A program made the position numbers and the translations under genes. This document shows, one piece after another, positions 1 to 18,766 of a stretch of DNA of 64,000 nt; position 1 is the first letter of the stretch; each line of letters starts with the position of its first letter. This DNA is from an uncultured Bacillota bacterium (GTDB taxonomy: Bacteria; Bacillota_I; Bacilli_A; RFN20; CAG-288). The notes under the pieces are model-generated. The model worked only from the letters and a program-made list of their open reading frames with translations, ran no database searches and was not told the origin of the DNA. Location of the stretch: the NCBI GenBank assembly GCA_949284445.1, contig CASDVP010000003.1, positions 139,051 to 203,050 on the forward strand. Reading direction: 5' to 3'.

Positions 1-2
1 TG

Positions 3-1865
3 TTACTATTAGCTATACCTGTTCTGATCATCATTTACATCATCAAAAATAAATATAAGGAAAAGACGGTGTCTTCCAGTTATATTTGGGAGCTGAGTCG
101 TAAATTTTTAAAAAAGAAAAATCCGCTCAACAGCATCTCTAATCTGCTCAATCTCATCATGCAGTGCTTATGCATCGCTTTCTTGAGCTTCGCACTTGCA
201 GATCCAGTTTTTAATTTTCAAAACGGTGCTGAGAATGAAGTTTTCATTCTCGATGCTTCAGCTAGTATGTCGACTTTAAATGAAGATGGCATTTCCCGCT
301 TTGATGAAGCCAAAAATAAAATTGAAAAAATCGTCGATGATGCTGTCGATGGAACAACATTCACTTTGATTGTAGGTGATTCAAACTCACGCACAATTTG
401 TAAACAGATTCAAGATAAAGATATCTTCCATTCCTTCATCGATCGAGTTGAAATCGATATGGCTGATTCAGATTTAGATGGGGCGATCAGTTTAGCTCAA
501 TCTTTAGCTTCGCAAGGAGATGGCAGCCACTTCTCTTTGTTCACCGATAAAGAAGTGGAAACTGATGATAGCTTAGCCATCTACCAAGTCGGAGACACCT
601 TTACCAATTATTCGATTGATGACTTGCAAGTTTCAGAAATAGAAGATGAGGAAGGAGCTCCTCAGCTTTTCCTCGAAGCCGATGTCATCTCTTATAGCGG
701 TGATACTTCTCTCGATGTGGAATTTTATATCGATGATGTTTCAGTCGGAAAGGTCACTGTCGACGCTAAAGAGAATGAACCTATCATTGCTTCCTTATCT
801 CTTTCTAATCCCGAAGAGAAATATTCAAATTACTCTTCCATCAAGGCTAAACTCTTAATGGAAGATTATTTATCAAAGGATAGCGAATATATCCTCTATA
901 ACTTCAATGATTTTGATACGACCAACGTTTTGATCGTCAGCTATTCGCCATTCTACTTTGAGTCTGTCTTCAACGCTCTCAATAATAATGGTTTAAAAAT
1001 CAACTATACCACCATCACCCCTGATATCTATTCTCTCTATTCTGGTTCCATCGGTTATGATCTGACGATTTTTGATAGTTATTCGCCTGATCAGCTTCCA
1101 GTCGACAGCGCAGTTTGGCTCTGCAATACCGGTTCTTCAATCCCTCATTCAGGCTTCTATGCTCAAAAAGAATACACTGTCGATGATCCTGGAATCAAAG
1201 CTACTTACGCTGAAAATATCAGTGATCCGCTATATCAAGAATTGACGAAAAATTTAGTGAAAAGAGAGATAACTATCAAGACTTATATGCGTTACACATT
1301 GAATTCTCGTTTCACTACCATTCTCTCTTATGATAACTTACCTTTCATATTCGCCGGTCGCAACGAATATGATCAGCGACAAATCGTCTTCAATTTCGAC
1401 CTGCATAATTCTAATTTTCCTCTCTTAGCTGACTTTGTCATCTTGATGAGAAATTGCGTCGCTTATTCTAATCCGAGCATCTTGACAGAATTCAACTATA
1501 AATCCCATGATATCGTCACTTTTTCTTTCCCAGACACCGCTATTTCTTGCGAGATAACCGCTCCTTCTGGAAAGGTAGATTATCTGAGCCCGACAGATAT
1601 TCAGAGCTACACTTTAGAGGAAGTAGGAACCTATTCGATTAAGGTTGGATTAGCTACTGGCAAAGAAAAAATGATAAATCTCTTCAGCGCCTTTCCAAGC
1701 CAAGAGAGAGAACCTTTAAGTAAAGAAGATGATGTTTATCAAATGTCTATTAATAGTCAGACAAAGAAAGCCGTGCGCATCTTCGATGCTATCTTGCCGA
1801 TGGTCATCGTTGCTTCAGCTTTCCTAGTGACAGATTGGATCATATATAGCCATGAACAATTTTAA
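3..1865 (+). CDS. BatA-like membrane protein with von Willebrand factor A domain (5' partial; the frame is open from the window start)
   Basis: The frame is open from nt 3 (LLLAIPVLIIIYIIKNKYK...), so the N-terminus lies upstream of the window. Two N-terminal TM helices are followed by a VWA core with MIDAS-like VFILDASASM. The architecture is typical of the BatA/BatB N-terminal double-TM plus VWA family. Confidence 0.6.
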   Translation, partial: LLLAIPVLIIIYIIKNKYKEKTVSSSYIWELSRKFLKKKNPLNSISNLLNLIMQCLCIAFLSFALADPVFNFQNGAENEVFILDASASMSTLNEDGISRFDEAKNKIEKIVDDAVDGTTFTLIVGDSNSRTICKQIQDKDIFHSFIDRVEIDMADSDLDGAISLAQSLASQGDGSHFSLFTDKEVETDDSLAIYQVGDTFTNYSIDDLQVSEIEDEEGAPQLFLEADVISYSGDTSLDVEFYIDDVSVGKVTVDAKENEPIIASLSLSNPEEKYSNYSSIKAKLLMEDYLSKDSEYILYNFNDFDTTNVLIVSYSPFYFESVFNALNNNGLKINYTTITPDIYSLYSGSIGYDLTIFDSYSPDQLPVDSAVWLCNTGSSIPHSGFYAQKEYTVDDPGIKATYAENISDPLYQELTKNLVKREITIKTYMRYTLNSRFTTILSYDNLPFIFAGRNEYDQRQIVFNFDLHNSNFPLLADFVILMRNCVAYSNPSILTEFNYKSHDIVTFSFPDTAISCEITAPSGKVDYLSPTDIQSYTLEEVGTYSIKVGLATGKEKMINLFSAFPSQEREPLSKEDDVYQMSINSQTKKAVRIFDAILPMVIVASAFLVTDWIIYSHEQF

Positions 1866-4539
1866 ATTTGGAAACCCGTGGTTGCTCTTTATCTTTTTAC
1901 CACTTGTCATCGCCCTAGTCATCGGCTTCTTTTTGATGAAGAAGGAGAAGCGATACACCAAGAAAAATATAACTTCTTTTTGCTTGCACATCGCTGTCGC
2001 TCTCTTAGTTTCATTCGCCTTCGCTGATCCTCAGTTCTTAAAAATTGGAAGAGAGACAGAAGTCTATATTTTAGTCGACGCTTCAGCTAGTGAGAAAACT
2101 TCAGTGGATCGTCTAAACGATGCTGTTAATAATACTCGTTCAGAAGCTTTAAAAGTCCCAAATACAAAAGTCGGAATCATCGCTTTTGCTAACGGTGCTA
2201 AAACAGTCGCTGACTTAGGCGATTCATTCGATGGTCTTGAGACATTATATGAAGACTCTTCCTTCGACTATTCAGCGACAGATATCGAACAAGCTCTTCT
2301 TTATACTGCTGAAAAGTTTTCTGGCGATGCTTTTAAAAGAATCGTTCTCATCTCAGATGGAGAAGAGACTGATGGCGAAGCTATCGATGCTATGGAAACC
2401 TTGCTTGAACAAGGCATAACTATCGATGCTATCGACTTACAAGCCGATTTTCCTGCAGAAGTTTCTTTGACAGGTATCAAATATACCGATAACGTCTATC
2501 TCAATCGTCAAGAAGAAGTTGAAGCCTCTATCAGTGCCTCCACACCAACCGATGCTACTATCGAGCTTTATAAAGATGATGATCTCATTGAAAGCAAAAA
2601 CAGCCATTTAGGAAATGGTATCAACATTGTAAACTTTTCACTCGATACTTCTATCAGTGGTGAATTTGATTATCGCCTAGAAGTCAAAGCTCAAGATAAT
2701 CTCGAATTCAAAGATACCTTCACTGAAAACAATGTTCGTTCTTTTGTTCAAAATGTGAATGGAGATTTCAATATTTTATTCATCGGTACTGTTCAGTCTC
2801 AACTCGACAAATTCACCCAGATGGCAGAGTTATCAGAAGAGACAACTATCGATTCTTATATCGGCACTGATAAAGTCCCCTATGCTTTAGAGGATTTGAT
2901 CAACTATGATGAGATCATCCTTTCCAATATCGATGTAGTCGAACTCGATCACTATGATGAGTTCATCGATAATTTGACAACTGCTGTTTCAGTTTATGGT
3001 AAATCGGTCTTCACCTTTGATTCGACTCATGTCGGCAATACTAATGATCCTTCACTAGTGAAATATAACGATCTTTTACCTGTCCAATATCAACCAGATG
3101 ATTCACGCGCTCTAGTCTTAGTCATCGACTCATCCGGATCCATGGGCGGAAATAATATCAATATGGCTATTCAAGGAGCCAAAGAGGTCGTTGATAAACT
3201 TGATATCAATGATTCGATCGCTGTCGTCACCTTCGAGACTAACGTCAACATTCCTGTCACTATGACGACGATACGTAACGAAGCTAATCGCCAAGATATC
3301 AAAGATAAAATCGATAAAATCACTGTCAATGGCGGCACCAACATGATGAACGGATTAGACGAAGCCTATAAACAAATCGAAGGAGTCACCGCTGAATATA
3401 AGGACATCATCACTCTCTCAGATGGTATCGCTGGAGATAACGAAGAGGATCTTAAAGATTACGTCACGTCCATGAGTTTTTCAAATATTTCCTGCTCTTT
3501 CATCAACATCGGTGATAAAGGAGGCGAAGAACTTCTAAAAACATTGGCTAAATTAGGAAATGGTCAGTATCACTATGTTGATTCCGCTTTAGGTCTTAAA
3601 GATATCATGGTTGATACTATCGAACAGGAAATCATCGATACTGTCATCGAAAAGGATTCTGAAATCATCTATCAAATGAAGGATGATGCCTCTTTACAAG
3701 GTGGCGTATATAACAATCTAGAAAATATCTCTGGCTATAACTATTGCCGTATGAAAAGTGGAGCTAACACCGTCTTATCTGTCCAATACATTCATACAAA
3801 TTCCGAAAATCAGCTGAGTGTAATCGCTGTCCCTCTATATGCTTATTGGGATTTCGGACAGGGCAAAGTTTCCTCTTTCACCTCTTCTCTAGACACTGAT
3901 TGGACAAATAAATTCTGGAATTCTGCAGCCGGACAGACTTTTTTCAAAAACATCCTCTCACAAAGTTTTCCTGAACGCTTCAACAAATCGATTCTAGATG
4001 TCGACTTCACTGCGAATGGATCAACGACTGATGTCACTGTCACTCCTCATGTCGACACCGATGAAACCAAAGTAGAAATGGAAGTCAAACCTTATGGAAC
4101 CGAAAACGCTTCAACTTATAGCCTTGTCTATGATGGTGAAAACTTCAACACCCAAATCGCAACACCTCAAATCGGGCTTTATGAAGCCACTATCTCTTTC
4201 TCAAGATTAAACTCTAAAACTGACGAATATGAATTGGTTGAGAGCACTGATATCATCTTCAGTTTTGATTTCTCGTCTGAATTCAATTTCTTTGATACTA
4301 AAGACAACACTCTGCTCTATCAGCTCTCATCACAAAGCGGCGGTTCACTATTACCCGAAGATGAAATTCATTTAAACATCAACGATAGTCAGCTTAGCGA
4401 TGCTTCTTATCAATCGACGATGGTTTGGTTCCTTCTCGCAGCTGTTATCGTCTATCTGATAGATATTGCTATCAGAAGAACTATCTTTAAGAAAAAACCA
4501 AAACAACAAAACATTGAAACACCAAGTAATTATTTTTAA
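1852..4539 (+). CDS. Large membrane-anchored protein with two VWA domains (BatB-like) and a C-terminal TM anchor
   Basis: N-terminal double-TM segment (LLFIFLPLVIALVIGFF ... LLVSFAFADP). VWA motifs VYILVDASASEKT and LVLVIDSSGSMGG. C-terminal hydrophobic helix MVWFLLAAVIVYLIDIAI. Overlaps the upstream gene by 14 nt, so the pair is likely an operon. Confidence 0.6.
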   Translation: MNNFKFGNPWLLFIFLPLVIALVIGFFLMKKEKRYTKKNITSFCLHIAVALLVSFAFADPQFLKIGRETEVYILVDASASEKTSVDRLNDAVNNTRSEALKVPNTKVGIIAFANGAKTVADLGDSFDGLETLYEDSSFDYSATDIEQALLYTAEKFSGDAFKRIVLISDGEETDGEAIDAMETLLEQGITIDAIDLQADFPAEVSLTGIKYTDNVYLNRQEEVEASISASTPTDATIELYKDDDLIESKNSHLGNGINIVNFSLDTSISGEFDYRLEVKAQDNLEFKDTFTENNVRSFVQNVNGDFNILFIGTVQSQLDKFTQMAELSEETTIDSYIGTDKVPYALEDLINYDEIILSNIDVVELDHYDEFIDNLTTAVSVYGKSVFTFDSTHVGNTNDPSLVKYNDLLPVQYQPDDSRALVLVIDSSGSMGGNNINMAIQGAKEVVDKLDINDSIAVVTFETNVNIPVTMTTIRNEANRQDIKDKIDKITVNGGTNMMNGLDEAYKQIEGVTAEYKDIITLSDGIAGDNEEDLKDYVTSMSFSNISCSFINIGDKGGEELLKTLAKLGNGQYHYVDSALGLKDIMVDTIEQEIIDTVIEKDSEIIYQMKDDASLQGGVYNNLENISGYNYCRMKSGANTVLSVQYIHTNSENQLSVIAVPLYAYWDFGQGKVSSFTSSLDTDWTNKFWNSAAGQTFFKNILSQSFPERFNKSILDVDFTANGSTTDVTVTPHVDTDETKVEMEVKPYGTENASTYSLVYDGENFNTQIATPQIGLYEATISFSRLNSKTDEYELVESTDIIFSFDFSSEFNFFDTKDNTLLYQLSSQSGGSLLPEDEIHLNINDSQLSDASYQSTMVWFLLAAVIVYLIDIAIRRTIFKKKPKQQNIETPSNYF

Positions 4540-4614
4540 TAAACGAATCTTATTTTACTTGTAAAATTGTTTCATTCACAACTAATAACCTTACTGACTT
4601 CGAACTAGTTTAAA

Positions 4615-4706
4615 AAACCTTGCAGTCATCTATGAAAAAGAGATAAAAGAGGCATATTGTTCGCCTAGAATAAATCTCTTTTTCTATTCTGCAAGGTTTT
4701 TTGATG
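4615..4706. terminator. Long bidirectional stem-loop terminator between the VWA operon and the island
   Basis: AAAAAACCTTGCAG ... CTGCAAGGTTTTTT is a 10+ bp inverted repeat with A/T runs on both sides, with a nested AGAATA/TATTCT stem. Confidence 0.45.
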
Positions 4707-4752
4707 CAAGAGCTTCTTTTATTTATTTAAATCTTAATATTATCTCGACTAG

Positions 4753-5484
4753 CTATTTAGACTCTTTTATCCGTTGTTGCCAAAGATTATAAATATTAGT
4801 GACGGCTTCATCGTACAATTGAAATGAGGATTTATCTATATCTTGATCAGTGTTCTTTAGTCTCAAATATTCGTCATGCAACTCAAGACTCAAGGAATAA
4901 CCAGATTTATAGTGATAATGATATGATTCATCGCCATCATCACCGATGTTATCTTCTAGCCATTCTATTTTTTCAATTGTAGCATCGTTATTGCCGCCAT
5001 GTGTCGACTACACATATGAACCATTTTTATATTTTTTAGCATATTTTTCTGAAAGCATGCCTTTGCTGTCTCTCACATCTTGAAAAATAGCAAAATCAAG
5101 GCAATGCACAATATTCTTATCTTCTTGATCAAAAAACTTAACTCTTATGGCCGAGGCCCTGTCTTCAATCGCTTCGTATCCATATTTTTTAAATGCGGTT
5201 TGAATCGCAAAATAAAACTTATTTCGTAAATCTTTAGCCTCCCACTCCTTATCATCAATCGGACGGCTAACATATAGATTGATACCGAAATCAAAGCCTT
5301 TGTTTCCAGCTGTTCTTCTAGTGATAAAAACTTCTTCACTTTGATCAAAGCTACCGACACAGCTCCAATCAAACTCGATTCCTGCCTCGTCGATAATTTT
5401 TGACATTTTCCGAATGCATGATTCAACTTAATGGATAACTGGCTGATAATCTTTCAATGGAATATACTCGAAAATTTTATCCAT
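4753..5484 (-). pseudogene. Disrupted gene of unknown family: a 244-codon frame with an in-frame TAA (5430..5428) and an in-frame TAG (5010..5008)
   Basis: An AGGAGGA RBS lies 4 nt before the ATG at 5484. After 18 codons (MDKIFEYIPLKDYQPVIH) there is a TAA. The same frame continues through MSKIIDEAG...KNGSYV, then a TAG, then 84 further sense codons to the TAG at 4755..4753. The distal 84-codon segment contains no Met or alternative start, so it can only be the tail of a once-continuous gene. Confidence 0.6.
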
Positions 5485-5694
5485 AAGTCCTCCTTCTCTC
5501 TAAAAATTATTTTAGATATATCAAACACTTTAGTATATCTGTTCAAAACAGCCTATTATACTTTTAAAATTTAGCTTTGCCGATAAGAGATCTTACAAAA
5601 TCAGATGATTAGAGGCTTTATATTCTATTTTATTTCCGATTCTCAATAGAATCTTGACTCTAGTGTTATTTGAAGAGCGAAAATATTATCTCTA

Positions 5695-6936
5695 TTAAGA
5701 CTTACTAGAAATGAAGTCAGATGAATTTCCTTTATATGAGGCTAAAAATGTTATCGGATCTAATTCAAAATTATCTTCGATCTCGCCGTTAACACGATAA
5801 AAAGAAACATCAGTAGAATTCACATTATATAAGCGATACACAAAATAGGTTTCTTTATCTTTTTTAGATGCTTCTATTTCTCCCTTTGACACCTGAAATT
5901 TAGTATCCATTTTGCTTTGTGTTGTTTTTACTTCAATATGAATTTCTTTGACCACGCCATCAATTATGTCGTATGACTTGATGTCATAACCATAATAATC
6001 AGATTTAGTTGATATCCATTCAATCTTATCAGCGTATTCGCTCAACAAGTCATCTTTAGCCAATCTATCTTTTTCATATTCTAAAACCAGTTGTTCTCCG
6101 ATCAATCCGATTTTAGCATCTTCTTTGGCCTTCTTTAAATAATCTATTTTTCTTGGAATAGGAGACGTGATTCTTTCAAATTTTTGACTCCTATCAACTT
6201 TAGGCTGCACCTCATTTAATTTTCGGTTCAAATCATATGGCGTTGTGCCTTCTTCATCGATGCAGTCCTTGATGTCTTTCTCTGCAGTATCTATATCTAT
6301 TAACAAACCGTTTCCATTGATCAATCTTTCATATTCTAAAATGTTTTCGATTATTTCATCATATTTATTCGTTTTAAAATGATTGATGATAAAATCATAT
6401 ATTTTCACCATCCCACTTAAATCATTAAGCAATTCTTTTTCATCAAATCCGTTAGATGGATAATACTTTGAAATTATCGTGGTTTTCTCATAGCCATATC
6501 CTAATGATGCTTTTTTTGCCTTCAAATCGATTTGCTCTTTAGAAAAACGATCATCACTGATCTCTGATTTAATATAGTTAGAAACAAGTTCAGCAACCTT
6601 ATATTTTCTTCTGCCATATGTCTTTTCAAAATATGTTATACCTTGCATTAAAACAAGATAAAATCCCTGCATATCACTTCTAAATAAATAACAGACATAA
6701 ATACCATTTTGTGTTGAATTAGTTATGTTTTTATTCAAAATAGAAATCCATGGATAGTCTGTCTTATTGCCTTGCCCCATAGAACCTTTGACTAAAAGCT
6801 CTTTTCTCTGTCCTAAATTAAGAAGTATCTCTTTTGGTAATTCGCGAACTAATTCTTTATATAATGCGCTAGTATTATCTACTTTATTAGAAAGAGATAA
6901 GTATCCATTTAATATATTTTGAAATAATTTTTCCAT
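5695..6936 (-). CDS. MrcB_N-like (DUF3578) plus DUF3883 (NOV-C REase-fold) fusion; putative single-chain modification-dependent (type IV-like) restriction/defence nuclease
   Basis: The N-terminal motif KGSMGQGNKTDYPWISILN matches the GSxGxGxxxxxPWI signature of DUF3578. The C-terminal IGEQLVLEYEK ... GYDIKSYD ... IEVKTT ... FQVSKGEIE ... YFVYRLYNV matches the DUF3883 core. The ATG at 6936 is preferred over the TTG at 6963 used by the track. Confidence 0.55.
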   Translation of the reverse strand: MEKLFQNILNGYLSLSNKVDNTSALYKELVRELPKEILLNLGQRKELLVKGSMGQGNKTDYPWISILNKNITNSTQNGIYVCYLFRSDMQGFYLVLMQGITYFEKTYGRRKYKVAELVSNYIKSEISDDRFSKEQIDLKAKKASLGYGYEKTTIISKYYPSNGFDEKELLNDLSGMVKIYDFIINHFKTNKYDEIIENILEYERLINGNGLLIDIDTAEKDIKDCIDEEGTTPYDLNRKLNEVQPKVDRSQKFERITSPIPRKIDYLKKAKEDAKIGLIGEQLVLEYEKDRLAKDDLLSEYADKIEWISTKSDYYGYDIKSYDIIDGVVKEIHIEVKTTQSKMDTKFQVSKGEIEASKKDKETYFVYRLYNVNSTDVSFYRVNGEIEDNFELDPITFLASYKGNSSDFISSKS

Positions 6937-7226
6937 AGTTATTACCAGGATAGCAAAAAACAAGCTATTTTAATAGATCAAAATTATCGCAAAAGGTTTA
7001 CTATGTATAAAAAGCGAATTATTCAAATTCAAAATCGAGTTATAAAGACTTCCTTTATTTTCAGTGTTAGCCAGTTCAAATAAAGAATTAAATATCATTA
7101 CAAATCTATCAAATAACGGAGAAATAATATCACTTTATACAACCGATTTGCTTCTCCATCAGATAATTGATAAGAGCTACTTCACGGCGGAATACAGTCT
7201 GTTCTTTAACAATCGCATAACCTCTT

Positions 7227-7601
7227 TTAAGAAAAAAAACCTTTTGCAGTTATCGATGCTTCAACAGTGATTTTATATTTTGCTTGTTTTTCAAGTTTGT
7301 CGCAAATCATAGAAGCTATTCCGCGATGTTGAAATTCGGGCAAGACATACAAAAGATTTATATGCCCATCTTTAGTGATATCACCAAATCCCACAGCTTC
7401 ATCATCACAATAAGCTAAAACAGAATAATGAGCTAAAAAGGTATCATTCCAACTGTTTCGCTCTATTCCAGAAAGCCAAGCATTTATTTGCTTTTCGTCA
7501 TAATCTTTTTTACAAGTTCCTAAGATTGAAAATTTAAAGATTTTAATGACATCATCACTATTTGATGATTTATATTTTTGTAGATCTAAATCTTTACTCA
7601 A
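7227..7601 (-). CDS. GNAT family N-acetyltransferase (short form)
   Basis: Acetyl-CoA binding motif A is present (LLYVLPEFQHRGIASMI). TTG start preceded by a GAGGAGGAG RBS, with a TATAAT-like box further upstream. Confidence 0.55.
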   Translation of the reverse strand: MSKDLDLQKYKSSNSDDVIKIFKFSILGTCKKDYDEKQINAWLSGIERNSWNDTFLAHYSVLAYCDDEAVGFGDITKDGHINLLYVLPEFQHRGIASMICDKLEKQAKYKITVEASITAKGFFS

Positions 7602-7629
7602 TTCAATCTCCTCCTCAATAAAAATTATA

Positions 7630-7800
7630 ACTTTTTATATTAACTATTCATCTCTTTTAATCAATGCAGGAACACCAGTAAATACTATCAGTAAATTAGT
7701 GGGAAATTTATCCCCAGAAATCACTTGGAAATTGTATAGCCATTTATATCCACAAACTATAAATATAGCAGTCGTAAATTTAGAAAACTTGATAAAAAGT
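7630..7800 (+). pseudogene. Tyrosine recombinase/phage integrase C-terminal remnant (catalytic Tyr region only)
   Basis: ITFYINYSSLLINAGTPVNTISKLVGNLSPEITWKLYSHLYPQTINIAVVNL resembles the integrase C-terminal box (RHTFAT..LL..G....IQ.LLGH.S...T..Y.H.....AV..L). The conserved H is replaced by N. There is no N-terminal or catalytic core upstream because the frame runs into the GNAT gene on the other strand. It lies about 220 bp from the 3' end of tRNA-Val. Confidence 0.5.
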
Positions 7801-7974
7801 TCAAACAAAGTTCAAACAGAAAATAAAAAAGCCCTAGAAATAGGGCATATTTCAGTCAAATACGGAGCAGCAGAGAGTCCCTTCAACCACTTGGGTACTG
7901 CTCCAAATAGAAGTAGAAAAGCAAAAACAATTATATTGTTTTCGAAGTTCTTTTACAACATATTTTTAATATGT

Positions 7975-8004
7975 TAGAAAAAGCCCAAGGAATTCATCCT
8001 TGGG
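7975..8004 (-). terminator. Intrinsic terminator downstream of tRNA-Val
   Basis: On the minus strand: CCCAAGGA-tgaat-TCCTTGGG hairpin followed by CTTTTT. Confidence 0.5.
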
Positions 8005-8017
8005 ACAATTATATACG

Positions 8018-8090
8018 TGGGCGCTATAGGGATCGAACCTATGACCTTCTGTACGTCAAACAGATGCTCTCCCAGCTGAGCTAAACGCCC
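8018..8090 (-). tRNA. tRNA-Val (anticodon GAC)
   Basis: The minus-strand sequence GGGCGTTTAGCTCAGCTGGGAGAGCATCTGTTTGACGTACAGAAGGTCATAGGTTCGATCCCTATAGCGCCCA folds as a cloverleaf. Acceptor GGGCGTT/AGCGCCC, anticodon loop TTGACGT, T-loop GGTTCGATCC. CCA is not encoded. Confidence 0.85.
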
Positions 8091-8202
8091 ATTGCGTCAA
8101 ACGCGTTGAATATTATAAAGAAACTTATATTTAAAAGCAATATTTTTTTCATTTATTTTTGAAAAATGAGAAATGTCACCTATACTAATCACGAGGTGTA
8201 TT

Positions 8203-9408
8203 ATGGATATTTTAATCGTTTGTCTTTTATCATTAGCTTTAGTTCTTTTAATCATTTTATTAGTATTATTCTTAAAGAAAAAATCTGTGACTAGTAATAT
8301 CTCTAATTCTAACGATATTTTCATGAAGCTTGGAAATATCGAAACAGAAATAAAGAAACAAGTTGAAGATAATAAAACCATTATCAGCCTGACTACTTCT
8401 GAACAATACGATAAAATTTCAAAAGCTATCTCAGATGAGCTAACTAAAATCAATAACACTTTATCAATCACTTTAGATAGAGAGATTTCTCTTTTACAAA
8501 CAACACAAAAATCTATTCAAGATAATTTGAACAATTTGAATACAAAGGTCAGCGATTCAATAGATAAAGGATTTAAAAACAGCAATGAACAGGTGCAATT
8601 AGTAGTTAAATCGCTTGAAGAATTAAAAAGTGCGTCATTAAATCTTAAAGATCTCAGCCAAGACATTCAATCATTGAATCAATCTTTGAATTTTTCGCGC
8701 CCATCAGGCAAATTTGGCGAACAAGTTTTAGAGGCGGTTTTAAGATCTGTTTTTGGTGATACTAAAGATATCTTCGAATTGCAATATACCTTGATCAACG
8801 ACAATGACACCTCAAAAAGAGTCATCGCAGATGCGGTAGTTCACTTGCCACAACCACTTAATTTATTATGTATTGATAGCAAATTTTCATATATAAAATT
8901 CAAAGCATTATTTAATAATTCTGGAGATAATGCTTTGAAACAAGAATTTAAAATTGCTTTAAAAAATGAGATAAATAAAATCGCTGCTTCTTATATTATC
9001 AATGATAAAACAGCACCATATGCCATCATGTTTATACCAAATGACGGCATATTTGCTTATATCGAAGGCGATGATAACTTATATGCGCAAGTTGTCGAAT
9101 ATGCGTATAAGAAGAAAGTCATCATAACTTCACCTTCTACTCTTCAACCAATATTAGCTAATCTGAATCTTTTACGTATAAAACACGAGACAATAACGAA
9201 TATCGGCAATGTTCTAGAGCAAATCGACAAGGTTAAGAAAGCATTATTAAATTATCAAACGTCATGGCAAAACATTTCCAAAGCGATCGATGTTCTCACT
9301 GAAAAACGTGATGACTTTGATAAGAAAGTCAAGACATTAAATCAGAGATTAGACGGATGTTTAAGCGATAAAAGCAGCCAAGAGATATATGAGATCAAGA
9401 ATGATTAG
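8203..9408 (+). CDS. rmuC: DNA recombination protein RmuC
   Basis: N-terminal TM helix, long coiled-coil, and a conserved C-terminal RmuC block (FGEQVLEAVL ... DAVVHLPQ ... LCIDSKF ... AIMFIPNDGIFAYI ... VIITSPSTL). Start placed at ATG 8203 (MDILIV), which follows ACGAGGTG. Confidence 0.75.
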   Translation: MDILIVCLLSLALVLLIILLVLFLKKKSVTSNISNSNDIFMKLGNIETEIKKQVEDNKTIISLTTSEQYDKISKAISDELTKINNTLSITLDREISLLQTTQKSIQDNLNNLNTKVSDSIDKGFKNSNEQVQLVVKSLEELKSASLNLKDLSQDIQSLNQSLNFSRPSGKFGEQVLEAVLRSVFGDTKDIFELQYTLINDNDTSKRVIADAVVHLPQPLNLLCIDSKFSYIKFKALFNNSGDNALKQEFKIALKNEINKIAASYIINDKTAPYAIMFIPNDGIFAYIEGDDNLYAQVVEYAYKKKVIITSPSTLQPILANLNLLRIKHETITNIGNVLEQIDKVKKALLNYQTSWQNISKAIDVLTEKRDDFDKKVKTLNQRLDGCLSDKSSQEIYEIKND

Positions 9409-10616
9409 AGTTTGAAGCTAAAAACTGAAGTCTCAACATCGAATTCTTCATTAGAAACCCAAGTGACTGTCAGATCATCTAAATTATATAAAGATGACCA
9501 AACAGTTATGCTGTTACTATCAGATGGCTTAGACGCATCCCAAGTTCTTCTCCCTAAATCTTTTAAAAGATCTAAGGCGCCTTGATATGTGAGATCGCCT
9601 TTAGTATTAGTGCCATCAGGATTGATAGTTTCTTTAATATAGTTATAACGATCTAATCCTTTTTTATCTTGATCATCAGAATAATAATCTGGAGTGACTA
9701 TAAAATTAGTGATGTATTGGAAATTATCTCTCTTTTCATCTGCACCAAGAATTGCATCATCGTCGTTATAGTAGACTTTTAATTCTCTTTTAGAACCATC
9801 TGTATCGGTTTCATCACTTCCATTGACCCATTCTAATATCGCACTCTTGCCGGTTTTATCAGCTACCATATAATGGAATGAAGTGTTGGCTGAGTCATGA
9901 AAATCATATTGCTTTACTAATTCGACAGCATCTTCGACTGAATCAGCATAGTCAAGAATCATTCTTAACATCGTAGTTGAAGTTAAATCCGGTTTATCTG
10001 TGTTTTGATTTGTAGAAACGACCTGTCCTTCCGGTCCTTGATAAGACATGTAAATACCACAGCTGACACCAGCATCATTCATGCCATCAAGAGGGACGAA
10101 TGGGGCTGCTAAAGCGATTGCTTTTTGTAAGAAAGAATCGATCTCTCCTGTGATGCCTAAGAATTGTAAATCGACCGAAGAAATAGACTTATGTCTGCCA
10201 TTTCCTGGATCAGTATGCAAGATCATAGAAGTAGTGGTGGAAAAATCATAATTTCGAGCGAAGAGATGTTTGCCATTCTCATCGATCGCTGTGAATGAAG
10301 AACATCCGATGGTAGGAGCATCCAAAGAAATAGGAATAATTCCTTTAGTCAGATTACCAACGATAAAATCGATGAGTTCTTGATCGCTAGACGCACCGCC
10401 TTGTTTGATGAAATCATCAAAATAATATCCGCCTTTCATTGTCATTTCATAGACAGGACCAGATTTATTTTCTTCTTTTGCATCAACAATTTTTCTGATG
10501 GATGTGATAGAAGCGATCTCATTATGCCACAGTGCGGCTACAGTGATTCCTAATCCAGCGACGATGACGACGACTGCAGAAACGGCACCGATAACAATCT
10601 TTTTCCAAAGTTTCAT
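9405..10616 (-). CDS. Membrane-anchored Ntn-hydrolase, choloylglycine hydrolase/penicillin V acylase family (linear amide C-N hydrolase) with an N-terminal pro-region
   Basis: N-terminal TM anchor (MKLWKKIVIGAVSAVVVIVAGLGITVAAL). Internal Cys nucleophile in context IGCSSFTAIDENGKHLFARNYDF, resembling the CSS N-terminus of penicillin V acylase. Start at ATG 10616 with a GAGGT RBS. Confidence 0.55.
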   Translation of the reverse strand: MKLWKKIVIGAVSAVVVIVAGLGITVAALWHNEIASITSIRKIVDAKEENKSGPVYEMTMKGGYYFDDFIKQGGASSDQELIDFIVGNLTKGIIPISLDAPTIGCSSFTAIDENGKHLFARNYDFSTTTSMILHTDPGNGRHKSISSVDLQFLGITGEIDSFLQKAIALAAPFVPLDGMNDAGVSCGIYMSYQGPEGQVVSTNQNTDKPDLTSTTMLRMILDYADSVEDAVELVKQYDFHDSANTSFHYMVADKTGKSAILEWVNGSDETDTDGSKRELKVYYNDDDAILGADEKRDNFQYITNFIVTPDYYSDDQDKKGLDRYNYIKETINPDGTNTKGDLTYQGALDLLKDLGRRTWDASKPSDSNSITVWSSLYNLDDLTVTWVSNEEFDVETSVFSFKL

Positions 10617-10759
10617 ATTATTTACCTCACAGAAGTTAGGATAATAAACGATTGAATTTATGCAACATTTAACCGCTTCCATAGAAAGAAAAAGATGAGG
10701 AATTCAGATAAATAGAATATACTATTCTAGATTTCATTTAAGACCGAGGAGAATTTCAT

Positions 10760-11236
10760 ATGGAGTTTAATAATATCTCTTGGGATGAGTACTTCATGTC
10801 CATTGCTATCCTTTCTTCTATGCGCAGCAAAGATCCGAATACCAAAGTCGGTGCTTGTATTGTTTCTACTGAACATAAAGTTCTTTCTTTAGGCTATAAC
10901 GGCATGCCAACAGGGATTGATGATAGAAAGATCCCTTGGGAGAGAGAATCTAAAACATCATCGATATTAGACACCAAATATCCATATGTTTGTCATGCAG
11001 AATTAAACGCTATCTTAAATTCTAATCACAACCTTCAAGACTCCATTCTTTATGTGACTTTATTTCCTTGCAATGAATGTACAAAAGCCTGCATACAAGC
11101 CGGCATCAAAAAAATCATTTATATCTCTGATAAATACCACGATAGCGAAGAAGAGATCGCTGCTAGAAAGATGTTAGATATGGCTCAAATTCCATATGAG
11201 CAATATAAAGGTAGACTACCTGAGATCAAGTTCTAA
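10760..11236 (+). CDS. comEB: dCMP deaminase (ComEB-type cytidine/deoxycytidylate deaminase)
   Basis: Zinc-binding motifs HAELNAIL and PCNECTKACIQAGIKKIIY. About 158 aa. Confidence 0.8.
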   Translation: MEFNNISWDEYFMSIAILSSMRSKDPNTKVGACIVSTEHKVLSLGYNGMPTGIDDRKIPWERESKTSSILDTKYPYVCHAELNAILNSNHNLQDSILYVTLFPCNECTKACIQAGIKKIIYISDKYHDSEEEIAARKMLDMAQIPYEQYKGRLPEIKF

Positions 11237-11238
11237 AT

Positions 11239-11493
11239 ATGAAATTTGAAAATCATACACGCTTTCCTTTTAAAAGATGCATCATCGCGTCAATTGTGAT
11301 CTTATTATGCTATTTGATGGTGCTGATACTACCGTATAGCATCATCTATACCAGTGTTCATGACAAAAATAATCTTCCTAAATATTCCTTTATCATTCTC
11401 ATCTGCTGGATATCATTAACCATAGCATCAATCATAGCTTATTGGATATACCAACTGATCAAATATTTAAAAATTAGAAAAGATGAAAAATAA
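11239..11493 (+). CDS. Small membrane protein, hypothetical
   Basis: 84 aa with two hydrophobic helices, tightly packed between comEB and ecfA1. Confidence 0.35.
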   Translation: MKFENHTRFPFKRCIIASIVILLCYLMVLILPYSIIYTSVHDKNNLPKYSFIILICWISLTIASIIAYWIYQLIKYLKIRKDEK

Positions 11494-12355
11494 AGCCAAA
11501 TTATCTGAACTCTTAAAAAAAGAAAAAAATATTCCTGAAGATTCAGCAGTCTTCTTAAAAGATCTAACTTTTTCCTATGAAAAGAATCATCCGACATTAA
11601 AGAAGATCAATCTTGATATCAAAAAAGGTCAAGTGGTAGCCTTCATCGGACATAACGGCTCAGGAAAATCGACATTGGCCAAATTGATCGATGGCATTTT
11701 GATTCAAGATAGCGGTGATATCGCTATCTTTCAAACGATCATGAACGATAGCAATGCGCTTCTATTAAGAGATCACATCGGACTAGTTTTTCAAAACCCG
11801 GATAGTCAATTCATCGGAGCGACTGTCGAAGATGACATCGCTTTTGGCTTAGAGAATCAGAACACTCCTCAGTCTGAGATGCAGAAACGTGTTCTGGAAT
11901 GTGCAAAATTAGTAGGGATGGAAGATTATTTGAAGAGTGAACCTGCTAATCTTTCCGGAGGTCAAAAACAAAGAGTTGCAATAGCAGGAGCGATCGCAAG
12001 AAAACCAGATATCCTCATATTGGATGAGGCTGGCGCCATGCTTGATCCAAAAGGTAAAATCGCTATTAGGAATATCATTCGTAAAGAAAAAGAATTAAAT
12101 CCAGACTTAACTATTATTTTAATTACTCATGAACTCGAAGAAGCATATGATGCAGATACTGTAGTAGTTCTTTCAGGCGGTCAGATTTTACTAGTCGATA
12201 CACCAGAAAAAGTGTTTTCTAATGACGAGCTGTTAAAAAACATCGGTTTAGATATTCCATTCGCACACAAACTAAGAAAATCTTTGATCTCTTTAGGTGT
12301 CGATGTTCCTGAAGTCAATAATGAAGAGGAGTTATTAAATTTTCTATGCCGATAA
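11483..12355 (+). CDS. ecfA1: ECF transporter energy-coupling ATPase EcfA1
   Basis: Walker A GHNGSGKST, ABC signature LSGGQKQRV, Walker B ILILDE. First of a conserved ecfA-ecfA-ecfT-truA array. Confidence 0.85.
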   Translation: MKNKAKLSELLKKEKNIPEDSAVFLKDLTFSYEKNHPTLKKINLDIKKGQVVAFIGHNGSGKSTLAKLIDGILIQDSGDIAIFQTIMNDSNALLLRDHIGLVFQNPDSQFIGATVEDDIAFGLENQNTPQSEMQKRVLECAKLVGMEDYLKSEPANLSGGQKQRVAIAGAIARKPDILILDEAGAMLDPKGKIAIRNIIRKEKELNPDLTIILITHELEEAYDADTVVVLSGGQILLVDTPEKVFSNDELLKNIGLDIPFAHKLRKSLISLGVDVPEVNNEEELLNFLCR

Positions 12356-13263
12356 AAATCGAATATCTTTATCATATCTATGATGAAGGTTTACCCAGTC
12401 AGCAAGTCGCTTTACAAGATATCAATTTCATTTTTGAAGATCACTGTTTCACTGCTTTGATAGGTCAAACAGGTTCTGGAAAATCAACGCTTATCCAACA
12501 TCTCAACGGTTTATTGATCCCGACTTCTGGAAAGATTGATATAAATTCTTATCTCATCGATATCTCTTTGGTTTATAAAGAAAAGAAAGGTCAAAAGATT
12601 ATCGATCAGAAGGCGATGAAGAAAAAAAGAAAAGCTAAATTGAAAGACATTAAGACTTTGAGAAAAAAAGTCGGGATTGTTTTTCAATTTCCAGAATATC
12701 AGTTGTTTGAAGACACTGTCATCAAAGACGTTTCATATGGCCCTAAAAACTTCGGTCTTTCAGACGATGAAGTTTTAGAAGCCTCTAAACACGCCTTAGA
12801 CTTAGTCGGAATAGATAAAAGTTATTATGATAGAACACCATTTGCCTTATCAGGTGGTGAAAAAAGGCGTGTAGCTATAGCTGGTATCATCGCCATGAAA
12901 CCTGATGTGTTAGTCTTAGATGAACCGACTGTCGGTTTAGATGCTAATGGTGAAGAAAAGTTATTAAATCTCATCGAAAATATCCATAAAAGTGGGACTT
13001 CGATAATTTTAGCCACTCATAATATGGATGTGGTTTTAAAATATTGTCAACAAGCGATAGTTTTAGACAAAGGAAAAATAGTCAAGCAATCTACGCCTTT
13101 AGAGCTTTTCCAAGATCAGGAATTCTTAACCCATTCTTCATTAGTGCCACCAAAAGTGTTTTCTTTTGCTTTAAAGCTAAAAGCGCATGGTTTAGACATC
13201 GATTTATCAAAAATCAAAGATGTTGATTCACTAGCATCAGAAATAATGAAGGCGAAGAGATAA
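12346..13263 (+). CDS. ecfA2: ECF transporter energy-coupling ATPase EcfA2
   Basis: Walker A GQTGSGKST, signature LSGGEKRRV, Walker B LVLDEPT. Overlaps ecfA1 by 10 nt. Confidence 0.85.
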   Translation: MPIKIEYLYHIYDEGLPSQQVALQDINFIFEDHCFTALIGQTGSGKSTLIQHLNGLLIPTSGKIDINSYLIDISLVYKEKKGQKIIDQKAMKKKRKAKLKDIKTLRKKVGIVFQFPEYQLFEDTVIKDVSYGPKNFGLSDDEVLEASKHALDLVGIDKSYYDRTPFALSGGEKRRVAIAGIIAMKPDVLVLDEPTVGLDANGEEKLLNLIENIHKSGTSIILATHNMDVVLKYCQQAIVLDKGKIVKQSTPLELFQDQEFLTHSSLVPPKVFSFALKLKAHGLDIDLSKIKDVDSLASEIMKAKR

Positions 13264-13264
13264 C

Positions 13265-14122
13265 ATGACATTGACCATCGGAAAATTCACACCTTTTAAC
13301 ACGATCATTCATCGCTTAGATGCTAGAGTCAAACTGATAGGTCTGATCATCTTTTTAGTCGCTACTTTTTTAAACTACGGAAACGGTTATATGAACTTAG
13401 TGATAAATGGGGGTATCCTAGTTATCATCATCTTCTTATCTATCATCAGCAAAACCAGTTTCTTAAAATTGTTCAAATCTTTAAAGGCGATGTGGATGAT
13501 GATTCTTCTCCTTTTGATCTTGAACATTTTTTTGCCATCTTCATCGACTGGAGACTTCTTCTTTATCGGTGAAGTAAAGATCTATTATCGAACCATCATA
13601 AACGTCAGTTTTATCCTTTTGAGATTGATCATAGTCTTAGGTGAAACGAATATCTTTACTTCTACGACTAAACCTATGGATATGACTTATGCGTTAGAAT
13701 GGTTATTTACTCCCTTAAAATGGATCAAAGTTCCTATACATAAGTTTTCAATGACCATCTCTCTTGCTTTAAGATTCATCCCGACATTGGCTGAAGAATC
13801 TGAAAGGATCATGAAGGCTCAAGCAAGCCGTGGTGTCGATTATAAACAGGGCAAGTTCAAAGATAAGATCAAAGCCATCATCTCTCTTATCATCCCTCTT
13901 TTCATCAGTTCATTGACCACTTCTTCAGAGCTGACTGATGCCATGGAAGCTAGAGGATATAATCCTGATGGTAAAAGAAGCCGTTATAAATTGCAAAAAT
14001 GGTCACTGAAAGATACGATTGGAACTTTGATTTTAGCTATCATATTGACAGCTATGATAATATTAGCTGTCTATCAATTTGATCTGTTTGCTCATTTAGG
14101 AGTTTCATTACCAAAACTATGA
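13265..14122 (+). CDS. ecfT: ECF transporter transmembrane component EcfT
   Basis: Polytopic membrane protein with the CbiQ/EcfT pattern (MEARGY... near the C-terminus). Sits immediately after the two EcfA genes. Confidence 0.75.
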   Translation: MTLTIGKFTPFNTIIHRLDARVKLIGLIIFLVATFLNYGNGYMNLVINGGILVIIIFLSIISKTSFLKLFKSLKAMWMMILLLLILNIFLPSSSTGDFFFIGEVKIYYRTIINVSFILLRLIIVLGETNIFTSTTKPMDMTYALEWLFTPLKWIKVPIHKFSMTISLALRFIPTLAEESERIMKAQASRGVDYKQGKFKDKIKAIISLIIPLFISSLTTSSELTDAMEARGYNPDGKRSRYKLQKWSLKDTIGTLILAIILTAMIILAVYQFDLFAHLGVSLPKL

Positions 14123-14907: not shown

Positions 14908-14944
14908 AATGCTATAATTTTAATGTTTAACATCTGATCGGAAT

Positions 14945-15646: not shown

Positions 15647-16055
15647 AATATACTCTTCTCCGAGCTGTTCAAGCTGTAGAAAAGTCAAAGCGTGGTTTAA
15701 ATCTCAACAGATTCCCTTTGTTGAAATAAATATCTTAAAACATGAAATATCTGAAGAAGAGCTCAAAGATATGCTCAACAAATCTTTAGACGGAACTGAC
15801 GATATCGTCTCTAAAAGAAGCAAAATTATCAAAGACTTGAACGTCGATATCGATTCGATGTCTATCCATGAATTATGTGAGTTTATCAAAGCGAATCCAT
15901 CGGTGCTAAAAAGACCGATCATAGTCGACGATAGCAAGATACAAGTCGGATATAATTCTGATGAGATCGAGATCTTCGAACGAGCTAAAAAAGTTGCTGA
16001 AGAAGCTTGTAAAAATTGTGTCGATTACTCAAAATGTGATCATTGCTTCAAATAA
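15638..16055 (+). CDS. Spx/ArsC-family redox-sensing regulator homologue with an extra C-terminal Cys4 tail
   Basis: MIKIYSSPSCSSCRKVKAWF...RPIIVDD..QVGYN aligns along its length with Spx, including the N-terminal CxxC. The C-terminus adds CKNCVDYSKCDHCFK. GGAGGTG RBS before ATG 15638. Confidence 0.7.
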
Positions 16056-16062
16056 AATAAAA

Positions 16063-16105
16063 AGTGTCTGCTACCATCAAAGGATGATGAACAGACACTT
16101 TTTTC
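16063..16105. terminator. Bidirectional intrinsic terminator between the spx-like and CYTH genes
   Basis: AGTGTCTG...CAGACACT stem followed by TTTTTT on the plus strand, with an A-run on the other side. Confidence 0.6.
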
Positions 16106-16693: not shown

Positions 16694-16758
16694 AAATTCT
16701 CTCTCCTTAACTGTAATTATGATACAATAACAACGTTGAAAGATAAAGAAAATAAACA

Positions 16759-17538: not shown

Positions 17539-17540
17539 AC

Positions 17541-18755: not shown

Positions 18756-18766
18756 TTTAATCTCTC

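What the first reader, a model, noticed from the sequence alone, without database searches (positions are those of the whole stretch)
4540..8017. Decayed genomic island inserted at the 3' end of tRNA-Val
Between the VWA operon terminator and tRNA-Val(GAC) lie four elements: an integrase C-terminal remnant pointing at the tRNA; a GNAT gene; a DUF3578-DUF3883 restriction-like gene; and a gene killed by two nonsense codons. This is the classical signature of a tRNA-targeted integrative element that has lost its recombinase and is being eroded, leaving defence cargo.
Basis: partly seen in the sequence, partly recalled or inferred. Interest (0 to 1): 0.6.

Follow-up and report, generated by a model that had tools for sequence, protein, structure and literature searches.

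The report
Prophage integrase scar beside a broken tRNA-Ser
The four elements are real, but the integrase stub is a leftover of a temperate-phage-like element that targeted a tRNA-Ser gene (not tRNA-Val), the same integrase-less gene set is kept in every related genome found, and only this copy carries the extra breaks, so it is an ordinary old scar and not an island caught in the act of decaying.

Summary
All four elements are present. They are an NTase-like gene with two nonsense codons (4753-5484, -), a McrB-N/DUF3883 nuclease gene (5695-6936, -), a GNAT gene (7130-7601, -) and the last ~76 codons of a tyrosine integrase (7642-7876, +).

Three corrections:
1. This tRNA is intact in all 10 related loci checked.
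2. The GNAT gene is frameshifted in this window only.
3. No att repeat of either tRNA exists within about 16 kb to the left.

The stub is 76% identical to the C-terminus of a full 425-aa prophage integrase (E 5e-32). That gene's 3' end overlaps a tRNA-Ser gene in the same register.

Nine loci that span the interval, from two species, carry the same integrase-less arrangement. The interval lies inside a block of at least 9.6 kb (VWA operon to tRNA-Val) that is ~99% identical between species whose right flank is only 82% identical.

In the one assembly identical to the window, the junction at 7876/7877 falls between two scaffold ends that look like attL and attR of a second, live prophage. The 46-nt tRNA-Ser deletion may therefore be an assembly join.

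Verdict: a known kind of feature, partly supported, modest interest.

The parts
4612..4702 (.). A 91-nt palindromic hairpin between the convergent VWA gene and the NTase-like gene, probably a bidirectional terminator. Perfect 14-bp inverted repeats flank a 63-nt interior.
   Evidence: Inverted repeat I16. RNA fold dG -37.4 kcal/mol, z -6.6. A terminator-like site on the - strand at 4666-4650. The interior is inverted in L005 (62/63 match to the reverse complement).
4753..5484 (-). Pseudogene of a rare 243-aa family with a nucleotidyltransferase-like motif. It carries TAA at codon 19 (5430-5428) and TAG at codon 159 (5010-5008).
5695..6936 (-). Intact 413-aa gene fusing a McrB-N-type modified-cytosine reader (DUF3578/ADAM) to a DUF3883 PD-(D/E)xK nuclease domain. 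It is a predicted single-chain Type IV restriction enzyme. The ORF extends upstream to a TTG at 6963.
   Evidence: Pfam MrcB_N E 4.9e-42 and NOV_C E 1.6e-14. PADLOC PDC-S36 E 6.2e-35 and PD-T4-1 E 2.1e-13 on the C-terminal half. Intact in all 10 sequences compared, the window included. Domain meanings come from PMC11090510 and PMC6765204.
7130..7601 (-). GNAT acetyltransferase gene with a TTG start and a GAGGAGGAG ribosome-binding site. One extra base in the A8 run at 7232-7239 shifts the frame, giving a 124-aa product instead of 156 aa.
   Evidence: Pfam Acetyltransf_10. Translation. The only gap among 10 sequences is in the window and L006. NCBIfam PRK09831 E 2.5e-25, below its cut-off.
7642..7876 (+). 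The 3'-terminal ~76 codons of a tyrosine integrase gene (SLLINAG..GN..YSHLY..ISVKYGAAE). Its N-terminal ~340 codons are missing. The reading frame runs into the tRNA-Ser gene.
   Evidence: P0104 (425 aa) is 76% identical over residues 341-423, E 4.9e-32. P0104 has Phage_int_SAM_3 and Phage_integrase domains. Window 7650-7867 is 87% identical in DNA to L084 11047-11264. PHROG integrase hits. Pfam PF00589 E 3.1e-5 for the L001 allele, and no hit for the window allele.
7831..7846 (-). Hairpin GCCCTAGAAATAGGGC followed by a T-run on the - strand, inside the integrase tail. It is a likely terminator for the tRNA-Val/tRNA-Ser transcript. It is conserved in the live integrase gene of L084.
   Evidence: Alignment, where only the loop differs. 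L084 sequence.
7862..7905 (-). Remnant of tRNA-Ser(TGA). The 3' acceptor strand and T-stem (7862-7876) are joined directly to the D-arm and 5' acceptor strand (7877-7905). The 46 nt carrying the T-loop, variable arm and anticodon arm are missing.
   Evidence: Alignment with L004 and L001. Not called by ARAGORN or Rfam in the window. Intact 90-nt tRNA-Ser in L001, L004, L005, L007, L066-L069, L074 and L075.
7984..8004 (-). Terminator-like hairpin directly downstream of tRNA-Val.
8017..8090 (-). tRNA-Val(GAC), intact. It marks the right edge of the block that is ~99% identical between the two species.
   Evidence: Mismatch map of L005 against L066: no mismatches from the tRNA-Ser gene to 8 nt beyond the 5' end of tRNA-Val, then dense mismatches.

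Best explanation
The interval is an old accessory segment downstream of a tRNA-Val/tRNA-Ser(TGA) gene pair.

Its right edge is a scar. A temperate-phage-like element with a P0104-type tyrosine integrase once integrated into the T-arm/3' end of tRNA-Ser(TGA). In this integrase family the gene's last codons overlap the tRNA copy in attP. A later deletion removed everything except the last ~76 codons of the integrase (inferred).

Three independently transcribed accessory genes lie to the left: a GNAT gene, a McrB-N/DUF3883 predicted modification-dependent nuclease, and a small NTase-like gene. This arrangement is inherited and exchanged as part of a larger block of at least 9.6 kb shared at ~99% identity by two species.

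The nuclease and GNAT genes are under relaxed but real constraint. The NTase-like gene evolves neutrally and has been dead in the window's species since a shared Q19* mutation.

The window's strain adds a W159* codon and a GNAT frameshift. At a position that coincides with a scaffold junction, it also lacks 46 nt of tRNA-Ser.

The same tRNA-Ser site is still used. In the sister assembly a second integrase tail, identical to a live prophage integrase, abuts the intact tRNA-Ser.
For: Integrase identity:
- 76% identity to the C-terminus of a 425-aa integrase, E 4.9e-32. About 40 further proteins of 360-430 aa match at their C-termini.
- PHROG integrase hits.

Register with tRNA-Ser:
- In L084 the integrase gene (10001-11278) overlaps tRNA-Ser(GCT) (11259-11348, -) and sits next to a repressor/cro-like lysogeny module.
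- The window shows the same ...ISVKYG|tRNA junction.

Site still in use:
- L004 nt 1-84 are identical to the L084 integrase tail and precede an intact tRNA-Ser(TGA).
- L006 is 100% identical to window 1-7876. It leaves the tRNA after 13 nt, at the T-stem/T-loop border, and runs into 77 nt of foreign DNA.

Conservation:
- The same gene order is found in L005, L074 and L075 (the window's species) and in L001 and L066-L069 (second species).

Block identity:
- The left side differs by 15-71 bases per 2.8-3.65 kb between species. The right side differs by 673-683 per 3.6 kb.

Selection:
- Variable codons in the VWA gene: 36 synonymous, 6 nonsynonymous.
- Nuclease gene 8/8. GNAT 8/8.
- NTase-like gene: 5 synonymous, 9 nonsynonymous, 4 with stops.
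- Fisher p = 1.5e-5.

Nonsense codons:
- Q19* occurs in four independent samples of the species.
- Further stops arose independently in the window (codon 159) and in L005 (codons 101 and 111).
Against: - No distal att repeat was found, so the original extent of the element is unknown. The three genes cannot be assigned to it.
- No genome with an empty site was found.
- The deletion that truncated the integrase is inferred, not observed.
- The second, live element is seen only as two scaffold ends (84 nt and 77 nt). Its body was not recovered.
Confidence: 0.72

Rival explanations
1. One reading: a classical genomic island inserted at the 3' end of tRNA-Val. It has lost its recombinase and is now eroding, and the GNAT, nuclease and NTase-like genes are its defence cargo.
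For: An integrase remnant points at the tRNAs. One gene is of a defence type (PADLOC PDC-S36). A homologue of the NTase-like gene sits beside two large serine recombinases in another mobile element. Island genes show relaxed constraint.
Against: The stub abuts tRNA-Ser, with tRNA-Val 110 nt further on. There is no tRNA-Val or tRNA-Ser repeat to the left. The same arrangement occurs in all nine spanning loci of two species, with intact genes in the second species. GNAT and the NTase-like gene have no PADLOC hit. Composition is unremarkable.
Confidence: 0.12
2. The tRNA-Ser deletion at 7876/7877 is an assembly join, not biology. In the real genome a P0104-like prophage lies between the scar and an intact tRNA-Ser. 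The window was made by joining scaffold_32 and scaffold_0 of ERZ16268238 without it. This concerns the junction only and is compatible with the best explanation.
For: L006 equals window 1-7876 at 100% and L004 equals window 7877-19408 at 100%, both from the same sample. Each scaffold ends 77 nt or 145 nt past the junction with different sequence. The left breakpoint of the deletion is exactly where L006 leaves the tRNA. All 10 other loci have an intact tRNA-Ser. No second tRNA-Ser(TGA) is present in the window. The deletion has no flanking microhomology (direct reading).
Against: A simple overlap merge of the two scaffold ends would give an intact tRNA-Ser, not a 46-nt gap. I could not reconstruct how a join would produce this exact sequence, and no reads were available.
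Confidence: 0.5
3. The mobile unit is the whole block of at least 9.6 kb (the MoxR-DUF58-BatA-VWA operon, the three genes and both tRNAs). It is a large island, or a laterally transduced segment, that moved between the two species. The interval 4540-8017 is only its tRNA-proximal end.
For: About 99% identity from L006 6382 (inside the MoxR gene) to 8 nt beyond the 5' end of tRNA-Val, against 82% immediately to the right. Distances inside the block are not partitioned by species. More distant relatives have the atp operon directly upstream of rmuC and neither the tRNAs nor the VWA operon there. A prophage attachment site lies at this edge.
Against: The left end of the block was not reached. The VWA genes are under strong purifying selection, like core genes. 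Homologous recombination with one endpoint in the conserved tRNA genes explains the sharp edge without any mobile element. No recombinase or att site bounds the block.
Confidence: 0.15

Closest known systems
Temperate phage mv4 of Lactobacillus delbrueckii, whose tyrosine integrase targets the 3' end of a tRNA-Ser gene (bioRxiv 10.1101/2023.11.06.565760, abstract). More generally, the sublocation classes of tRNA integration sites (Williams 2002, recalled from memory).
   Same: A tyrosine integrase of a temperate element in a low-G+C Gram-positive host. The attachment site is at the 3' end/T-arm of a tRNA-Ser gene, and the phage supplies a replacement 3' end.
   Different: Only the last ~76 codons survive here. 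No sequence comparison with mv4 Int was made. In this family the integrase ORF itself runs into the tRNA copy. The same integrase tail is seen at both tRNA-Ser(GCT) and tRNA-Ser(TGA).
Defective or 'grounded' prophage remnants, and tandem accretion of integrative elements at one att site (CIME/ICE accretion in Streptococcus thermophilus). Recalled from memory, not checked here.
   Same: A recombinase-less remnant is kept next to a tRNA. A related element with a homologous integrase appears to have integrated in tandem at the same tRNA (L004/L006 ends).
   Different: No distal att site flanks the remnant, so it does not qualify as a cis-mobilisable element. The second element is known only from scaffold ends.
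Modification-dependent (Type IV) restriction endonucleases: E. coli McrB N-terminal DUF3578/ADAM reader (PMC11090510) and DUF3427-DUF3883 enzymes such as YenY4I/McaZI (PMC6765204). Also the PADLOC candidate PDC-S36.
   Same: A modified-base reader domain is fused to a DUF3883 PD-(D/E)xK nuclease domain in one polypeptide. The gene is stand-alone and lies in an accessory region.
   Different: There is no McrB GTPase and no McrC partner. No PDB relative is detectable by sequence. Activity is untested.
CD-NTase / DncV / OAS-type nucleotidyltransferases
   Different: The protein is much shorter (243 aa). The model has low confidence. There is no Pfam, PADLOC, NCBIfam or PDB sequence hit and no adjacent effector. 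The second Asp is Gly in this lineage, and the gene is a pseudogene here.

Membership tests
tRNA-targeted integrative element (prophage or genomic island) | Tyrosine integrase gene next to the 3' end of the target tRNA | tested here: met
   Met only as a remnant. The last ~76 codons are 76% identical to the C-terminus of the 425-aa integrase P0104 (E 4.9e-32). They abut the tRNA-Ser 3' end in the same register as in L084.
tRNA-targeted integrative element (prophage or genomic island) | Direct repeat of the tRNA 3' end (att) at the distal boundary | tested here: not met
   No match longer than 9-10 nt (E above 0.5) to tRNA-Ser or tRNA-Val in window 1-7640 or L005 1-15780.
tRNA-targeted integrative element (prophage or genomic island) | Empty site in related genomes | tested here: not met
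   All nine spanning loci of two species carry the same genes. Relatives with 49-57% RmuC identity lack the tRNAs and the VWA operon altogether, so they are uninformative.
tRNA-targeted integrative element (prophage or genomic island) | Target is tRNA-Val, as the finding claims | tested here: not met
   The stub abuts tRNA-Ser(TGA). tRNA-Val lies beyond a 110-nt spacer.
tRNA-targeted integrative element (prophage or genomic island) | Composition deviates from the host genome | tested here: inconclusive
   The interval is 30-34% G+C, inside the 29-39% range of 2-kb windows.
Functional tyrosine recombinase (Pfam PF00589 catalytic domain) | Complete catalytic domain with the R..K..HxxR..H..Y residues, plus N-terminal DNA-binding domains | tested here: not met
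   Only the region from SLLINAG to the C-terminus remains. The HxxR box and everything upstream are absent. The GH histidine is Asn in the window. The window allele gives no Pfam hit.
Type IV modification-dependent restriction endonuclease (single chain) | Modified-base reader domain | tested here: met
   Pfam MrcB_N (DUF3578), E 4.9e-42, residues 17-190. Described as the methylcytosine-binding domain of McrB in PMC11090510.
Type IV modification-dependent restriction endonuclease (single chain) | Nuclease domain with a PD-(D/E)xK motif | tested here: inconclusive
   The domain is present: NOV_C/DUF3883 E 1.6e-14 and PADLOC PDC-S36 E 6.2e-35. A GYD...EVK pattern is visible by eye in the sequence. 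The catalytic residues were not mapped on a structure.
Type IV modification-dependent restriction endonuclease (single chain) | Cleavage that depends on DNA modification | not testable with these tools
   Needs enzyme assays or phage challenge.
McrBC system | McrB AAA+ GTPase and McrC nuclease partner | tested here: not met
   No AAA+ or McrC domain in the protein or its neighbours.
GNAT acetyltransferase | Complete GNAT fold encoded by an intact ORF | tested here: not met
   The family match is clear (Acetyltransf_10, E 1.8e-15). The window copy stops at residue 124 of 156 because of the A8 run. Relatives are intact.
CBASS / CD-NTase | CD-NTase fold with catalytic [DE]x[DE]...D and an adjacent effector gene | tested here: not met

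The most novel reading that the evidence does not exclude
The tRNA-Ser prophage attachment site marks the edge of a chromosomal block of at least 9.6 kb (VWA/Bat operon, accessory genes and both tRNAs). This block circulates between two species that are otherwise about 18% diverged. Transfer could be driven by the resident prophage family, for example by lateral transduction starting at the att site, with the conserved tRNA genes serving as the recombination anchor.
Probability: 0.15. Interest if true: 0.55.

Novelty: new member of a known kind. Interest (0 to 1): 0.3.

Why it matters
On its own this is a routine annotation result. It comprises a prophage integrase scar, a candidate Type IV restriction gene, two pseudogenes and a damaged tRNA.

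Its practical value is threefold:
1. It corrects the target tRNA and flags a probable assembly join that hides a prophage and breaks what may be an essential tRNA-Ser(TGA). The window holds no second copy; the rest of the genome was not examined.
2. It defines an integrase family whose reading frame ends inside tRNA-Ser genes. One tail sequence is seen at two different tRNA-Ser isoacceptors.
3. It documents a sharp switch from 99% to 82% identity exactly at a tRNA pair in uncultured Bacilli. This gives a concrete locus for studying gene flow between species at phage attachment sites.

Tried and rejected
1. Direct-repeat searches for the tRNA-Val and tRNA-Ser 3' ends found nothing above chance.
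2. An Rfam scan of 4300-8400 found only tRNA-Val.
3. A word-indexed homologue search with the integrase stub returned only the same stub ORF from another sample (P0001/L007).
4. A 19-mer spanning the integrase tail and tRNA-Ser gave 58 hits in IMG/VR. All are an unrelated phage terminator hairpin, a chance match, and were rejected.
5. These searches found nothing: the 25-mer of foreign DNA from L006 in IMG/VR, the tRNA-Ser 24-mer in IMG/VR, two junction patterns in JGI metagenomes, and close P0104 relatives in IMG/VR.
6. Profile-based relatives in IMG/VR are only 36-42% identical and have no full tRNA next to them. L085 has a similar hairpin plus a tRNA-3'-like fragment, which I did not pursue.
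7. I suspected that L001 was a chimeric MEGAHIT contig. This was rejected because four further independent assemblies of that species show the same linkage.
8. I suspected that the window was a cross-species chimera. This was rejected because L005, L074 and L075 span the junction in the window's species.
9. The idea that the NTase-like gene and the nuclease form a two-gene system was rejected. Homologues in L080-L082 have no such neighbour.
11. A PDB sequence search found nothing useful for the NTase-like protein or the nuclease.
12. A literature look-up of PD-T4-1 matched only PD-T4-10 and was uninformative.
13. The left end of the high-identity block could not be reached, because look-ups were exhausted and restricted.


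Full report
**What is in the interval**

ORF listing, translation and profile scans confirm the four elements.

- A gene at 5484->4753 (-) is interrupted by TAA at codon 19 and TAG at codon 159.
- A 413-aa gene at 6936->5695 (-) matches Pfam MrcB_N (DUF3578, E 4.9e-42) and NOV_C (DUF3883, E 1.6e-14).
- A GNAT gene starts at 7601 (-) (Acetyltransf_10, E 1.8e-15).
- A + strand ORF at 7546-7977 has a central part that reads like the end of a tyrosine recombinase.
- tRNA-Val(GAC) lies at 8017-8090 (-).
- A strong palindromic hairpin at 4612-4702 follows the VWA gene (dG -37.4 kcal/mol, z -6.6).

Two details differ from the finding. The GNAT frame is broken by an extra base in an A8 run (7232-7239), which gives 124 aa instead of 156 aa. 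No repeat of the tRNA-Val 3' end exists.

**The missed element: a tRNA-Ser remnant**

A related MAG locus, L001 (uncultured Bacilli, RmuC 81% identical), carries the same genes, all intact. It also has an intact tRNA-Ser(TGA) between the integrase stub and tRNA-Val.

Alignment shows that window 7862-7905 is this tRNA with 46 nt removed: the T-loop, variable arm and anticodon arm. The tRNA is intact in all 10 related loci examined. It is invisible to ARAGORN and Rfam in the window. The integrase stub therefore points at tRNA-Ser, not tRNA-Val.

**Is the stub an integrase?**

- The window allele has no Pfam hit. It does hit PHROG integrase families (phrog_7685 E 4.4e-6, phrog_1 E 3.1e-5).
- The better-preserved L001 allele hits PF00589 at E 3.1e-5 (24.3 bits, just below the 27.1 cut-off), on profile positions 137-170 of 172. 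It hits phrog_1 at E 2e-9.
- An exhaustive HMMER search found P0104, a 425-aa protein. It is 76% identical to the stub over its residues 341-423 (E 4.9e-32). About 40 further proteins of 360-430 aa match at their C-termini.
- P0104 carries Phage_int_SAM_3 and Phage_integrase domains.
- In its contig (L084), P0104 lies next to a repressor/cro-like lysogeny module. Its last 20 nt overlap tRNA-Ser(GCT) on the opposite strand.
- Window 7650-7867 is 87% identical in DNA to the end of that gene. Homology stops at about 7642-7650.

The stub is therefore the last ~76 codons of a prophage-type integrase, in the same register to a tRNA-Ser gene as a live family member. The histidine of the GH box is Asn in the window.

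**Related genomes**

Exact-protein look-ups and RmuC homologues gave two groups of loci:

| Group | Loci | RmuC identity to window |
|---|---|---|
| Window's species | L005, L074, L075 | at least 99% |
| Second species | L001, L066, L067, L068, L069 (plus the short L007) | 80-81% |

- All of these loci show MoxR-DUF58-BatA-VWA, then the NTase-like gene, the nuclease gene, GNAT, the integrase stub, tRNA-Ser, tRNA-Val and rmuC. None has an empty site and none has a full integrase.
- More distant relatives (RmuC 49%) have the atp operon directly upstream of rmuC, with no tRNAs and no VWA operon. They say nothing about an empty site.

**State of the genes across strains**

| Element | Window's species | Second species |
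|---|---|---|
| NTase-like gene | Q19* in every strain; W159* added in window/L006; stops at codons 101 and 111 added in L005 | intact |
| Nuclease gene | intact | intact |
| GNAT | frameshift in window/L006 only | intact |

Counts of variable codons:

| Gene | Synonymous | Nonsynonymous | With stop |
|---|---|---|---|
| VWA | 36 | 6 | 0 |
| Nuclease | 8 | 8 | 0 |
| GNAT | 8 | 8 | 0 |
| NTase-like | 5 | 9 | 4 |

Fisher's exact test for VWA against the three genes pooled gives p = 1.5e-5. The three genes are under weaker constraint than the VWA operon. The NTase-like gene behaves as neutral sequence.

**A larger shared block**

- Window 1-7876 is 98-99% identical to the second species. Window 7877-19445 is only 81.7% identical.
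- A fine map between genomes with intact tRNAs (L005 against L066) shows sparse mismatches up to the integrase tail. There are none through tRNA-Ser, the 110-nt spacer and tRNA-Val. Dense mismatches start 8 nt beyond the 5' end of tRNA-Val.
- To the left, the high identity runs at least to the MoxR gene (L006 6382), which is the limit of the data.
- Distances inside the block are not partitioned by species: A-A 3-34, B-B 2-61 and A-B 45-71 differences per 3.65 kb. On the right flank they are 11-14, 0-30 and 673-683 per 3.6 kb.

The interval of the finding is therefore not an independent unit. It belongs to a block of at least 9.6 kb that was exchanged recently between two species, with the conserved tRNA pair at its edge. 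The mechanism is inferred. Homologous recombination anchored in the tRNA genes is the simplest reading. Phage-mediated transfer from the adjacent att site is a speculative alternative.

**The junction at 7876/7877**

- In sample ERZ16268238, scaffold_32 (L006) equals window 1-7876 at 100% and scaffold_0 (L004) equals window 7877-19408 at 100%.
- L006 continues after 13 nt of the tRNA-Ser 3' end, exactly at the T-stem/T-loop border, into 77 nt found nowhere else.
- L004 begins with 84 nt identical to the tail of the L084 integrase gene, followed by an intact tRNA-Ser(TGA).
- These ends look like attL and attR of a second P0104-like prophage integrated in tandem beside the old scar. The window lacks this element and 46 nt of the tRNA.
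- I could not reproduce the window junction by a simple overlap merge, and it has no microhomology. The question stays open. I rate an assembly join at about even odds with a real deletion.

**Functions**

- Nuclease gene. DUF3578 is the methylcytosine-binding domain of E. coli McrB (PMC11090510). DUF3883 is the PD-(D/E)xK catalytic domain of modification-dependent enzymes such as YenY4I (PMC6765204). The C-terminal half also matches PADLOC PDC-S36 (E 6.2e-35) and PD-T4-1 (E 2.1e-13). The likely mechanism, by inference, is that the N-terminal domain binds modified cytosine in incoming DNA and the C-terminal nuclease cuts nearby, with no NTPase motor.
- GNAT. This is a generic small acetyltransferase, nearest to NCBIfam PRK09831 but below its cut-off. 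It has no defence-library hit.

**Verdict**

- This is a known kind of feature: a prophage integrase scar at a tRNA-Ser hot spot, next to a small accessory cluster.
- The scar is older than, or exchanged across, the split between the two species. The 'ongoing erosion' is limited to one gene species-wide, plus lesions specific to this assembly.
- Interest is modest.

Noticed in passing
window 4612-4702 (L005 12761-12851): The 63-nt interior of the hairpin between the perfect 14-bp inverted repeats AAAAAACCTTGCAG/CTGCAAGGTTTTTT occurs in both orientations. It is direct in the window, L006, L074 and L075, and by alignment pattern in L001, L066 and L067. It is inverted in L005 (62/63), and by alignment pattern in L068 and L069. 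This is an inversion polymorphism inside both species. It flips which strand carries the central hairpin plus T-run.
   Followed up: partly
window 1 to about 8098 against L066/L067: Identity to the second species switches sharply from ~99% to ~82%, 8 nt beyond the 5' end of tRNA-Val. The 99% block includes the VWA/Bat operon, and its left end lies outside the available data.
   Followed up: partly
L004 1-174 and L006 16011-16102 (sample ERZ16268238): The scaffold ends look like attR and attL of a second prophage at tRNA-Ser(TGA). L004 has an integrase tail identical to L084 plus an intact tRNA. L006 has 13 nt of the tRNA 3' end plus 77 nt of foreign DNA. The body of the element was not recovered.
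   Followed up: partly
L084 11175-11348 against L004 1-174: The same 84-nt integrase tail precedes tRNA-Ser(GCT) in one genome and tRNA-Ser(TGA) in another. The acceptor-stem part differs (GGAGTGAG against GGAGCAGC) and the T-arm (GAGATTTGAACTCT) is shared. This suggests one integrase type using two tRNA-Ser isoacceptors through a T-arm core.
   Followed up: no
window 7831-7846 (L084 about 11228-11243; L085 after the integrase gene): A hairpin inside the integrase C-terminal coding region is conserved, with changes confined to the loop. On the opposite strand it forms a terminator just downstream of the tRNA-Ser gene. The phage seems to supply a terminator to the tRNA it rebuilds.
   Followed up: no
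L080 6948-10729, L081, L082: The 242-aa homologue of the NTase-like gene (56% identical) lies directly downstream of two large serine recombinase genes (437 and 524 aa). This points to cargo at the edge of another mobile element.
   Followed up: no
window 44275-44670: ARAGORN calls a tmRNA with an unusual tag peptide, ANKPVMFRAPAMMAAACC, which ends in CC rather than the usual ALAA-like end. The call may be wrong.
   Followed up: no
window 9405-10682 against L076-L079: The choloylglycine-hydrolase-family gene after rmuC is present in both species and in L073, but absent from the relatives with 49% RmuC identity. In those, rmuC is followed directly by the dCMP deaminase gene.
   Followed up: no
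L068 about 4560-4700: In one strain of the second species the 895-aa VWA gene is called as only 531 aa. The alignment to the window is split by about 140 nt of extra or duplicated sequence.
   Followed up: no
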